A stretch of 63,821 nucleotides of DNA, filler included, from Kipferlia bialata (Eukaryota), in assembly GCA_003568945.1 (NCBI GenBank). It is 8 parts of 7 records of this genome, joined end to end, with 100 filler letters (N's around TTAATTAATTAA, not from the genome) between each part and the next. Parts side by side here need not be neighbours in the genome. Positions count along the whole stretch, not along the records: positions 33,526 to 43,559 come from BDIP01001508.1; 7 more parts are not named here. One strand, given 5' to 3'. The translations under genes were made by a program, and so were the position numbers. Below, piece by piece: positions 39,101 to 41,882 of the stretch. Positions within the stretch are counted from its first letter, which is position 1; each line of letters begins with the position of its first letter. The notes below the pieces were generated by a model, which was not told the DNA's origin, made no database searches, and saw only the letters and a list, made by a program, of their open reading frames with translations.

Positions 39101-39235
39101 TGGGTCTTCTCCGTGCAGCACTTCAGCAAGTACGGCCTCTCCGACGACGGGGAGGCCGTGTGGGACTCTGAGACGGATGAGGCCGGGGACAGCGAGACAG
39201 AGGAGGCGACACAGACAGGAAGTGCTTTTTTCTAG
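36175..39235 (+). CDS. NUP98: Nucleoporin Nup98 moiety: WG-repeat domain plus autoproteolytic domain (HF/S)
   Basis: Repeat exons followed by YTVPALSDL..VRGFTVGH|FGRVEFLGLTDVRGLDL..EVYP..KPPVG|SGLNRPAIVTL..WVFSVQHFSKYG, the canonical Nup98 autopeptidase; TAG at 39233-39235. Confidence 0.92.
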
Positions 39236-39286
39236 GGGCGGGGCGCGGTGTGGCGACGCCAGTGGCTTCGCAGGACTTGCGCCCCG
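39226..39286 (+). promoter_or_regulatory. Candidate -1 programmed ribosomal frameshift signal (T_TTT_TTC, 6-nt spacer, stem-loop)
   Basis: Heptamer 39226-39232 is correctly phased before the TAG; CGGGGCGCGG (39239-39248) pairs with TTGCGCCCCG (39277-39286); the -1 frame is open from 39181 into the downstream ORF. Confidence 0.6.
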
Positions 39287-41882
39287 ATTCTGAGGCAGGA
39301 GAGAGAGAGAGAGATGGACACGCGCTGTCCGTTCTCCTTTCCCAGCACACCAACCGTGTTATCAACCCCGTGAACGTCGGCACCCCTGGGACCCCCTTCG
39401 AGGGTGACTCTGAGACAGAGCTGGGAGAGACCCCCGGCAACTGGAACGCCACCCCCTCTCTCGCGTCCTCCCACGTCCGCAACCTGCGTCTCCCTGCCTC
39501 TGCCTCCCGTATCATGCTGACCCACAACCTGAGGGCAGGGGTGGACGAGAGGGAGAGAGAGAGAGAGGAGGAGGAGGCAGCGCTGGCCGAGGCCGAGAGA
39601 GAGAGAGAGAGGCTGGAGGAGATGGAGAGAGAGACTGCCGTAGACATGAGCTTCCTCACCTGGAAGCAGGACGTGCCCCTTCCCCTCCCTCCCCCTGCGG
39701 CTGTTCCCTCTGTCCCTCTCCCCCCTGTCAGTGACGTCGACTCGTACTGCCGTGCCCTGATGCGGAGGCCAGGCGCAGTGGCCCCTGCCCAGGGTGGGGT
39801 CATGTTCTGTGCTGAGTGTGCCCCTGCCACCACCCACTGTGCCGCAGGGCCTGTAGCTACACCCCCAGCTGGCATGGTGGGGGTCCACGTGCCTGTGATA
39901 GGTGCGGGTCTACATAGTACTTATATACTATGATATACTACTAATTACACTCTGACCCCAGGCAACTGGCCCGAGTACTCTGGCGAGGCTGACGCTGTGG
40001 CCGCCGCCCTTCTGAAGCATCTCTCCCCCAATGTACCCTCATCTCCCTCTTCATCCCCCCTTGCCCCCGGTACTGGTCCTACCACTGGACTCACCGCCCA
40101 CCCCTCTGCACCCATCTCTGTCGCCCTTCCCACATCACGCGTGCCAGCCTTCCTCAAGGAGATTATAGTCGCAGGCGGCGGTATTGGGAGGCTCGCAGAG
40201 CTCCTTGCTGCAGTGTTCACCCCTGACTTTGACCCCGAGGATCCCACTGGTATAGACGAGGAGCATGCGTACATCCCCCCCGAGAGTGACTCTGACACCC
40301 ACCCTGTTGTCAAGCACGCCCTGCTGCTCTATCTGCAGAAGTATGCACAGCCCATGCAGTGGGAGGGCGAGGGGAGCCGTGTCGAGGGTCTTGTAGGTGA
40401 GCCTTCCTCTATTTGTATTATATATAGTCTCCCTCCACTGTGTCTGACCCCCAGGAGTGTTTGACTCGCTGTGCTCCGGCAAGATTGAGGACACTGTAGC
40501 CATGCTAGTCCCCACCCACCCCATGCTGGCCATGGCCCTGGCACAGCTGGGAGGGGACGGCAGGGCTGTTACTCAGGTACATTGCATACATATAGGGTGG
40601 AGGCACTAATTGGTTGTTGATCCAACACTCCTATACTTTCTCACCCCCTCAGCTTGCCCTCTCCCACCACGTAGCCAGGGGTCCCCTCCTTCCAGACCAG
40701 GCACACCGGTCACCGGTCGACGAGCTGCTCAACTGTCTTCAGGTACCGCAACACATGTTAGTTGTGAATTTATTCTTATTTATAGATGTGTGTCTAATGC
40801 GTAGGGAGACCTGTCCCTGCCCTTCAGCTGCTGTGTTGACTGGCGCCGTGCACTCGCCATCTCCCTCCTCCTGGGTGATGGAAACGGGGAGTTCCCTGTG
40901 CTTAGGTGCTGTTCGATATAGCTCGATAATAGTATATCAGTATACTGTTACAACAGTGATTACCCTTCCCCTCACCCCCAGGGGCATCTCCCAGCTCCAC
41001 TCCTACTATGGTGACGCAGAGACAGAGACAGGGAGAGAGGCAGCCATGCGCAGAGCCAGCACACGCACATTCACCTCCGACGTGCTCTCTCTCCCCACCG
41101 CCACCCCCCCCCTCGCCCCCACCTCCCCAGTGGACTCTACCCTGTCCGACCTCGAGTTCAGCATCCTCGCCCTGTACTGCGACCACTCCCTCCCTGCATC
41201 CAGTGTCCTCGACCCCGCAAGGGGTGGCCACCGCAACAGTGGCCTGTATGCATGGCTGGCTGGTGTTGTCATGTCTGCAGCGGGTGTCCCCATCCCCCCC
41301 TCCCTCCTCGACTCCCTCTGTGGCCATGCGGCAGAGGCTCTGTCCATGGCAGGTAGGTGGGACGTGGCGCCCCTCGCCCTGATGCTCGCACCCTCTCTCT
41401 CCCCTGCCGTCCCTCTGGATGAGGAGGAGAGTGACGTGGAGGAGGATCCCCTGAAGGACTGGGTGGATGCCAGTAGGGAGTGGGAGCAGGAGGCGGCGGC
41501 AGCAGCAGCGGCCAAGCACTGTCTGCACTCATGGGCGCAGAGGTTTGCCGGCAGAGAGCACTTCCTCGAGAGGGGGAACAGGCCCTCCTCGGACGTGGTG
41601 CTCAACCTGCTGGGCCTAGACACAGAGGCTGTCGAGGAGGTGCGGGAGACACACCTCCAGGCCTCATACCTGGCCCCTGTACCAGTGTGCACGGTGCCCA
41701 AGAGAGACATCCTGGCCCAGGCGGTGTCTGCCACAGAGGTGGACAGGCCTGTTCTGCCGCAGTGCGTGGCAGAGACTGAGGGTGGGAGGGACCTCACCAC
41801 AGAGTGTGACCCAGAGCTGGTGCTGCTGGCCCAGGACCCCGCCTCCTTCAACGATGCCCTCAACGCCCTGCTCATCTCCTAA
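39232..41882 (+). CDS. NUP96: Putative Nup96 moiety (divergent), in the -1 frame relative to Nup98, multi-exon
   Basis: Lies immediately after the HFS domain with no intergenic space. Helical exons include VFDSLCSGKIEDTV..HPMLAMALAQLGG and AEALSMAGRWDVA (cf. Nup96 A.QLE..G.W..A). Stop at about 41880-41882. Confidence 0.7.

What the first reader, a model, noticed from the sequence alone, without database searches (positions are those of the whole stretch)
39181..39300. Candidate programmed -1 ribosomal frameshift between Nup98 and Nup96
Seen: about 36 codons after the HF/S autocleavage site the Nup98 frame reads GCT TTT TTC TAG. The T_TTT_TTC (39226-39232) is an exactly phased X_XXY_YYZ slippery heptamer. 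After a 6-nt spacer (TAGGGG), CGGGGCGCGG (39239-48) can pair with TTGCGCCCCG (39277-86), forming 8 G-C plus 2 G-U pairs and enclosing a small TGGC-GAC-GCCA hairpin. The -1 frame is open from 39181 and runs into the putative Nup96 exons. Established: heptamer, 5-9-nt spacer and RNA structure make up the viral-type -1 PRF signal; many eukaryotes make Nup98-Nup96 as one self-cleaving polyprotein, and vertebrates make extra Nup98 through alternative mRNA processing. Inference: this organism may set Nup98 above Nup96 by ribosomal frameshifting in an essential nuclear gene. I know of no report of this.
Basis: partly seen in the sequence, partly recalled or inferred. Interest (0 to 1): 0.92.

Follow-up and report, generated by a model that had tools for sequence, protein, structure and literature searches.

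The report
Viral-style frameshift signal inside Nup98-Nup96
In the free-living protist Kipferlia, the messenger RNA for the nuclear-pore proteins Nup98 and Nup96 has a stop codon between the two, with a virus-type slippery sequence and strong hairpin at that spot, so Nup96 is likely made only when ribosomes slip back one base; the genomic DNA of an unrelated, likely green-algal organism has the same layout.

Summary
The window is the Kipferlia bialata gene KIPB_006057. Both the DNA contig and the spliced RNA contig read six Ts plus TAG, and neither shows a splice at the site. The 772-codon -1 frame is Nup96.

The public gene model hides the break with a 77-nt intron. That intron is not in the RNA contig and has exon-like GC and a poor acceptor. 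The hairpin 6 nt after the heptamer is the most stable 50-nt window of the mRNA.

New here: of 38 metagenomic Nup98-Nup96 sequence clusters, one (L024/L025, placed among green plants) repeats the layout. It has an in-phase T_TTT_TTT, a 6-nt spacer, the locus's best 70-nt stem-loop, and Nup96 in the -1 frame.

Best reading: programmed -1 frameshifting that gives excess Nup98, probably evolved twice (about 0.72). Frameshifting itself is untested, and a minor spliced isoform cannot be excluded from contigs. Five literature searches listed no report of it.

The parts
36175..39235 (+). Nup98 ORF, 688 aa in the RNA-dominant splice form (700 aa with the 36-nt exon 37439-37474 of the public model); ends at TAG 39233-35
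   Evidence: the first intron 36200-36307 comes from sequence and the public model, not from the RNA contig
36175..37790 (+). Repeat region made mostly of Trp-Gly instead of Phe-Gly repeats (23 WG, 4 FG in the 700-aa form)
38543..39139 (+). Autoproteolytic domain (Pfam PF04096) over three exons; HF/S codons at 39119-39127
39130..39161 (+).
   Evidence: -25.2, z -4.4, 0 of 200 shuffles; best 30-nt window of the mRNA; strongest of 54 equivalent post-HFS windows
39162..39225 (+). Purine-rich, predicted unstructured stretch leading to the slippery site
   Evidence: 198 of 200 shuffles of 39160-39240 fold at least as well
39226..39232 (+). Slippery heptamer T_TTT_TTC, in phase
   Evidence: T6 in the DNA and RNA contigs
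39233..39238 (+). Nup98 stop codon TAG within the 6-nt spacer TAGGGG
39239..39286 (+). Predicted stimulatory stem-loop, 19 bp with a 9-bp GC-rich base
39232..41882 (+). Nup96 ORF in the -1 frame, 772 codons in six exons; first ATG only at 39514 (codon 95); Nup96 core match at about 40384-41384
39222..39298 (+). 77-nt intron assumed by the public model GIQ84545.1; not seen in the RNA contig

Best explanation
One spliced mRNA carries Nup98, a stop codon and Nup96 in the -1 frame, and Nup96 is likely made by programmed -1 ribosomal frameshifting at U_UUU_UUC, likely driven by the stem-loop 6 nt downstream. Ribosomes that stay in frame stop at UAG and give Nup98 plus a 36-residue tail. Those that slip (both tRNAs are Phe, so re-pairing is perfect) read ...SAFF-LGAGR... 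into a 1460-residue precursor. Both products would self-cleave at HF/S, so Nup98 would exceed Nup96 by a ratio set by the slip rate, the outcome that fission yeast and humans reach by alternative splicing. A likely green-algal genome appears to have reached the same solution independently. Shown: frame break in DNA and RNA contigs, Nup96 identity, signal anatomy, second occurrence in DNA. Inferred: a single mRNA across both ORFs, slippage, cleavage, stoichiometric purpose, independent origin.
For: (1) T6+TAG is in the DNA and spliced RNA contigs; the RNA record is unbroken over 38931-39539 and the only joints in 38560-39960 are two ordinary introns. (2) ORF2 is an intact Nup96: profile from 53 fused homologues gives 34 bits, E 6e-13, best of 500 shuffles 0.8 bits; Atlas 0.93 to PF12110 clusters. 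(3) The frames overlap by only 17 codons and the heptamer sits there. In-phase heptamers occur at 41 per 23,898 codons in the survey, about 0.03 expected in 17 codons. (4) The hairpin at spacer 5-6 ranks 1 of 4333 windows. (5) The 71 codons 39300-39513, upstream of ORF2's first ATG, are coding-like only in the -1 frame (+30 bits against -57 and -17). (6) The annotated intron has GC 0.66 against 0.42 +/- 0.04 (maximum 0.48, 15 RNA-supported introns), and its acceptor scores -16.2 against a lowest true score of -2.6 among 16. (7) L024/L025 (82% GC): the only canonical heptamer on the + strand of 5.3 kb is T_TTT_TTT, in phase, 52 codons after HF. It has a 6-nt spacer and a stem-loop of -60.2 (z -4.3, best of 2623 70-nt windows), with Nup96 756 codons in the -1 frame. 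The codon-model switch point peaks at the heptamer (67.8) and beats six intron models (at most 57.5). The locus groups with Chara, Mesostigma, Tetraselmis and Auxenochlorella (support 0.999), far from Kipferlia.
Against: There is no direct measurement of frameshifting. Contigs drop rare variants, so a minor spliced form is invisible, and a contig across two ORFs does not prove one transcript (tool caveats). All Kipferlia data come from one sample. The GT at 39222 is donor-like (6.5; 5 of 192 exonic GTs score as high). The 21-22 codons under the hairpin are not coding-like in any frame (best -8.5 bits), so in Kipferlia the codon model scores the annotated intron higher than the frameshift (54.0 against 43.9) and the switch point is broad (best 39206). 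A one-base loss in a T run would create an in-phase heptamer by itself. Pfam does not call Nup96 on the Kipferlia protein. No fornicate relative was identified. There are no RNA data for L024/L025, which differ by one substitution in the coding region and may be one population. Hairpin rank depends on window size.
Confidence: 0.72

Rival explanations
1. Inefficient splicing: most mRNA keeps a weak intron (39222 to 39298 or a nearby AG) and makes Nup98 only, while a spliced minority makes Nup98-Nup96. The hairpins would tune splice-site access. This is the mirror image of S. pombe nup189.
For: The public model uses this intron. The donor resembles the RNA-supported donor at 38852. The segment is not coding-like. 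Alternative splicing controls the same ratio in S. pombe and humans (PMC4483485). The upstream hairpin buries another donor-like GT at 39130.
Against: No joint in the RNA contigs. GC is 0.66 against at most 0.48, and there is no branch motif 7-10 nt before the AG as in all 16 reference introns; acceptor score -16.2. It does not explain an in-phase heptamer with a 6-nt spacer in two lineages. Intron models fit L024 worse than a switch at the heptamer.
Confidence: 0.13
2. Nup96 is made from its own overlapping transcript, or by internal initiation at ATG 39514 or later; the gene has in effect split in two.
For: The 3' RNA record is somewhat deeper than the 5' one (465 against 367), although contig depth cannot rank parts of a gene. 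Nup98 and Nup96 expressed separately are functional in S. pombe. Land plants encode them separately (recalled).
Against: The 94 codons before the first ATG are open, and 39300-39513 is coding-like in the -1 frame. The RNA record runs unbroken across the stop. It leaves the heptamer and hairpin unexplained in both organisms.
Confidence: 0.07
3. Transcriptional slippage: RNA polymerase adds a U in the T6 (or T7) run in a minority of transcripts and restores one continuous ORF.
For: One added base restores the frame and gives the same protein; contigs would hide a minority.
Against: Only T6 is seen in RNA. A downstream hairpin at ribosome-entry distance is not needed for it. Six Ts is short for polymerase II slippage (recalled, not tested).
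Confidence: 0.04
4. A recent one-base deletion in this strain, not a programme: Nup96 is lost, supplied by another gene, or rescued by unselected leaky slippage.
For: Homopolymer runs are indel-prone (recalled); L040 shows a frame break at an A7 run with no hairpin. A second Nup96 gene could not be searched because no genome was held.
Against: ORF2 is intact, spliced and has GC3 like ORF1 (0.72 against 0.77). The mRNA's best 50-nt hairpin lies at the right distance. The layout recurs in L024/L025.
Confidence: 0.04

Closest known systems
Canonical viral -1 programmed ribosomal frameshift signal (retroviruses, coronaviruses, astroviruses; PMC3542737, passages read)
   Same: X_XXY_YYZ heptamer in phase, 5-9 nt spacer, downstream stem-loop, and a long ORF reachable only in the -1 frame. 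A stop directly after the heptamer also occurs in Rous sarcoma virus gag-pol (recalled).
   Different: The host is an ancient nuclear housekeeping gene with no sign of retroelement origin. No Rfam family reaches its gathering score here. There is an extra 14-bp hairpin 64 nt upstream. Activity is unmeasured.
Nup98-Nup96 / nup189 precursor with alternative splicing (S. pombe, human; PMC4483485, passages and section 4.3 read)
   Same: One gene, HF/S autocleavage site, two products (Nup98 plus tail, and Nup98-Nup96), giving excess Nup98.
   Different: In S. pombe the unspliced mRNA is one continuous ORF and splicing makes the short form. Here the unspliced mRNA has the stop, and the choice would be made by the ribosome.
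Cellular frameshifts: antizyme and PLEKHM2 (+1), retrovirus-derived vertebrate -1 cases (PMC11451614, section 3 and passages read); Euplotes +1/+2 (search listing only)
   Same: A nuclear gene decoded in two frames.
   Different: This one is -1, structure-stimulated and not retroelement-derived. That paper states that all vertebrate -1 cases are of viral origin and that the others reported were artefacts; the statement covers vertebrates only.

Membership tests
Canonical -1 PRF signal | X_XXY_YYZ heptamer (YYY = AAA/UUU, Z not G) in phase with the zero frame | tested here: met
   U_UUU_UUC; L024 U_UUU_UUU; definition
Canonical -1 PRF signal | Stimulatory RNA structure 5-9 nt downstream | tested here: met
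   Predicted only: stem starts after 6 nt, -32.5, z -3.4; L024 6 nt, -60.2, z -4.3
Canonical -1 PRF signal | Pseudoknot topology (one of two common forms) | tested here: inconclusive
   Only 5-6 bp loop-to-3' pairings were found by a simple search; a stem-loop is the simpler reading
Canonical -1 PRF signal | Signal present in the mature mRNA, with an overlapping -1 ORF | tested here: met
   (contigs of one sample; minor isoforms not visible)
Canonical -1 PRF signal | Measured frameshifting that depends on heptamer and structure | not testable with these tools
   Needs a reporter, ribosome profiling or mass spectrometry
Canonical -1 PRF signal | Conservation or covariation among close relatives | tested here: inconclusive
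   No fornicate relative identified; one distant recurrence in 1 of 38 clusters; no covariation test possible
Nup98-Nup96 precursor (peptidase S59) | Autoproteolytic domain PF04096 with HF/S | tested here: met
   127 bits, E 7.8e-37; PDB Nup98 hits
Nup98-Nup96 precursor (peptidase S59) | Nup96 domain downstream | tested here: met
   (E 9e-7); Pfam PF12110 itself gave no hit
Nup98-Nup96 precursor (peptidase S59) | FG/GLFG repeat N-terminus | tested here: inconclusive
   Repeats are WG (23) rather than FG (4); PF13634 E 0.08 only
Nup98-Nup96 precursor (peptidase S59) | One continuous ORF in the main mRNA | tested here: not met
   Stop at 39233 and a frame change in the RNA contig
Kipferlia spliceosomal intron (39222-39298) | Low GC, branch motif 7-10 nt before AG, removal from mRNA | tested here: not met
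   only the donor fits

The most novel reading that the evidence does not exclude
Canonical, structure-stimulated -1 frameshifting has been recruited at least twice independently (a fornicate and a green alga) to set the Nup98:Nup96 ratio in a core nuclear gene with no viral origin. More cases are hidden in databases behind false introns invented by gene predictors, as happened for KIPB_006057.
Probability: 0.6. Interest if true: 0.92.

Novelty: new variant of a known kind. Interest (0 to 1): 0.85.

Why it matters
Whether eukaryotes use viral-type -1 frameshifting for ordinary nuclear genes is contested. A 2025 preprint states that reported non-retroviral vertebrate cases were artefacts (PMC11451614). 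Disputed cases, as I recall them, rested on reporters in genes that need no frameshift.

Here a long, intact core nucleoporin lies entirely in the -1 frame, so the claim has a clear product to look for, and a second lineage shows the same design. It would add a third route to excess Nup98, beside alternative splicing and gene splitting or duplication. It also shows how gene predictors can mask such sites with invented introns, which suggests a systematic search.

Tried and rejected
Homopolymer assembly error (T7): rejected; both contigs read T6.

Stop-codon readthrough: gives only 45 more residues in frame 0 and not Nup96; the +1 frame closes after 19 codons.

Other GT-AG pairs that restore the frame: the best-scoring (39130-39533) is 404 nt at GC 0.64 and would remove the conserved YGL after HFS; 39222-39235 is only 14 nt.

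Close relatives: none by single-protein metagenome scan. The ORF2 search among shorter proteins found none. None of the 20 proteins named was labelled a fornicate (several had no name).

C-termini of 157 homologous proteins read by eye: no recurring slippery-type ending; not informative without DNA.

Other frame-split loci (50 clusters from 80 loci, 12 dropped for lacking a Nup96 core): 25 are open for at least 300 codons in frame 0, 7 need an intron, and 1 is mixed. L001, L012 and L063 overlap frames but show GT-type intron donors. L040 breaks at an A7 run in the +1 sense without a hairpin (likely an indel, unresolved).

Inverse case L051/L052/L054 (heptamer at codon 100, -1 frame closes after 6 codons): the stem is weaker (-20), starts 11 nt away, and the nearest protein lacks FF; left as probable chance.

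Rfam: nothing at gathering score. No RNA holder was on record as RNA in the run search; X2 is taken as RNA because it skips GT-AG introns. X3 and X4 gave no cover of the site. The viral scan gave one weak locus, not examined. The prokaryote-genome scan could not run, and no whole genome was held. Earlier-findings look-ups gave nothing bearing on this. No structure or complex prediction was run.

Full report
Identity. The Nup98 exon matches hypothetical protein KIPB_006057 of Kipferlia bialata (GIQ84545.1, 1446 aa) at 100% over 96% of the query. No whole genome was available. The gene starts at ATG 36175. Its autoproteolytic domain scores 127 bits to PF04096 and matches solved Nup98 domains; HF/S is at 39119-39127.

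Observation. The Nup98 frame ends GCT TTT TTC TAG, 36 residues after HF. The -1 frame is open from 39181 and, over five introns, runs 772 codons to 41882. The two frames overlap by 17 codons. Readthrough would add only 45 residues and the +1 frame closes after 19.

Is the break real? A DNA contig (X1, 38198-39539) and a contig that skips GT-AG introns (X2, 38931-39539) both match the window with no other letters and no gaps. In the zoom on 38560-39960 the only joints are the two upstream introns. So T6 and the stop are in the genome and in the dominant spliced RNA. Limits: X1 and X2 are one sample, X1 may be the window's source, contigs drop rare variants, the RNA records break at a GA repeat (39540-39620, skipped by the tool), and a contig across two ORFs does not prove one transcript.

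Is the second ORF Nup96? Pfam gave no hit. BLASTP to the Nup96 domain of a choanoflagellate protein gave E 9e-7. The Atlas's best three hits were PF12110 clusters at 0.92-0.93. A profile built from 53 fused homologues scored ORF2 at 34 bits, E 6e-13, against at most 0.8 bits for 500 shuffles. GC3 is 0.72 against 0.77 for ORF1. It is an intact, spliced Nup96.

The public model's intron. GIQ84545.1 joins the frames by removing 39222-39298. That segment has GC 0.66 against 0.42 +/- 0.04 (maximum 0.48) for 15 RNA-supported introns. Its acceptor scores -16.2 while the lowest leave-one-out score of 16 reference acceptors is -2.6; all 16 have a branch-like motif 7-10 nt before the AG. Against my reading: the donor is good (6.5; 5 of 192 exonic GTs score as high). 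The codons under the hairpin are not coding-like in any frame, so a codon model prefers the intron (54.0) to a frameshift at the heptamer (43.9), with a broad switch optimum at 39206. Constraint from RNA structure would give the same pattern (inference). The first Kipferlia run of this test had a one-base offset and was replaced.

The signal. The definition is X_XXY_YYZ, a 5-9 nt spacer and a stem-loop or pseudoknot (PMC3542737, passages). Of 73 canonical heptamers on both strands of the window, this one has the strongest downstream 50-nt fold (-32.5, next -16.6). It is the only one of 8 T6+ runs in exon-like DNA. The hairpin is the best of 4333 50-nt windows in the mRNA, z -3.4 with 0 of 200 shuffles as stable. 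The 71 codons 39300-39513, before ORF2's first ATG, are coding-like only in the -1 frame, which argues against a separate Nup96 start. A second feature is new: an uninterrupted 14-bp hairpin at 39130-39161 (z -4.4), the strongest of 54 equivalent windows, followed by 64 unstructured bases. It could space trailing ribosomes or hide the GT at 39130; both ideas are untested.

Independent recurrence. An alignment-based scan returned 178 confirmed stretches, of which the best 80 loci were kept. They form 50 clusters at 90% identity, 38 with a Nup96 core in the held DNA. Of these, 25 are open for at least 300 codons in frame 0, 7 need an intron, 1 is mixed, 3 show a +1 overlap (two with intron donors, one at an A7 run) and 2 show a -1 overlap. 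One of those two (L001) has an evident AT-rich intron. The other, L024/L025, does not.

L024/L025 is 82% GC and its only canonical heptamer on the + strand of 5316 bases is T_TTT_TTT (2961-2967), in phase, 52 codons after HF. After GGGACG comes a stem-loop (2974-3041, -60.2, z -4.3, best of 2623 70-nt windows; 22% at 50 nt). The zero frame stops at 2998 and Nup96 fills 756 codons of the -1 frame. The best codon switch point is 2959, and six intron models score lower. Both assemblies have T7, but they differ by one substitution in the coding region and may be one population; there are no RNA data.

Placement of L024. In a 66-sequence FastTree tree, L024 falls in a clade (0.999) with Chara, Mesostigma, Tetraselmis and Auxenochlorella, far from Kipferlia. 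Its nearest loci L080, L036 and L015 have continuous frames of 683-918 codons, so independent origin is likely (inference; deep branches are poorly resolved). As a control, 41 in-phase heptamers were found in 23,898 codons of 54 representatives. Four had z at or below -3.7, and only the Kipferlia and L024 sites open a long -1 frame.

Mechanism. Shown: the break, the Nup96 identity, the anatomy and its recurrence in DNA. Inferred: the ribosome pauses at the stem, two Phe tRNAs slip back one base, and a fraction reads ...SAFF-LGAGR... into a 1460-residue precursor, while the rest stop with Nup98 plus tail. Both products would self-cleave. S. pombe and humans obtain the same two products by alternative splicing, and the authors relate this to a need for excess Nup98 (PMC4483485, passages and section 4.3). 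Whether Nup96 is essential in Kipferlia, or has a second copy, is unknown. I put frameshifting at 0.72, minor splicing at 0.13, a separate transcript or internal start at 0.07, polymerase slippage at 0.04 and an unprogrammed deletion at 0.04.

Novelty. Five searches listed no report: Nup98 + Nup96 + ribosomal frameshift, 0 papers; Nup98 + Nup96 + frameshifting, 1, on influenza drugs; Nup98 + slippery sequence, 6 virus papers; nucleoporin + Nup96 + frameshift + green alga, 0; Nup98 + PRF + frameshifting, 9, eight on viruses and one on RPL41. I saw these hits as listings only. The library lacks most subscription papers. The K. bialata genome paper has no occurrence of 'frameshift' or 'nucleoporin' in its main text (PMC5874029, passages; supplements not read). 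PMC6679479 (passages) gave no Kipferlia splice consensus. The mechanism class is known; its use to reach a core, non-viral nuclear protein would be new. Earlier scan findings did not bear on this.

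Noticed in passing
window 36175-37790: Kipferlia Nup98 has Trp-Gly repeats (23 WG, 4 FG) where Phe-Gly is usual; the most WG among 157 homologues is 8. Loose contig pieces suggest other Kipferlia genes keep FG repeats. No GLEBS-like motif was evident by eye.
   Followed up: partly
window 39130-39161: Uninterrupted 14-bp hairpin right after the HF/S codons, z -4.4, absent in L024 and the strongest of 54 equivalent windows.
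   Followed up: partly
window 37439-37474: The dominant RNA skips this 36-nt exon, which the public model includes (joint 37358 to 37536).
   Followed up: partly
window 41105: Both DNA and RNA contigs read T where the window has C: an assembly error or an allele.
   Followed up: no
L025 5207-5269: A U6 snRNA match (46.3 bits, above the gathering score) about 80 bases after the Nup96 stop.
   Followed up: no
L051 1955-1961 (also L052, L054): In-phase T_TTT_TTC 100 codons after HF in a continuous Nup98-Nup96 ORF, with a moderate stem and a -1 stop after 6 codons; could be an inverse, truncating frameshift or chance.
   Followed up: partly
L040 about 472-478: Nup98-Nup96 frame break at an A7 run with the +1 frame open 945 codons, no donor or hairpin found; probably an indel error.
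   Followed up: partly
window 39288-39298 and L024 2994-3004: Both sites have a CTGAG followed closely by CAG at or near the hairpin, loosely like a branch point and acceptor; may be chance.
   Followed up: no
window 42269-42855 (- strand): Intronless ORF resembling RLP24/L24e (recalled from its sequence) just downstream, tail to tail.
   Followed up: no
L081: A viral contig with a weak match to the Nup98 autoproteolytic domain (E 7e-5).
   Followed up: no
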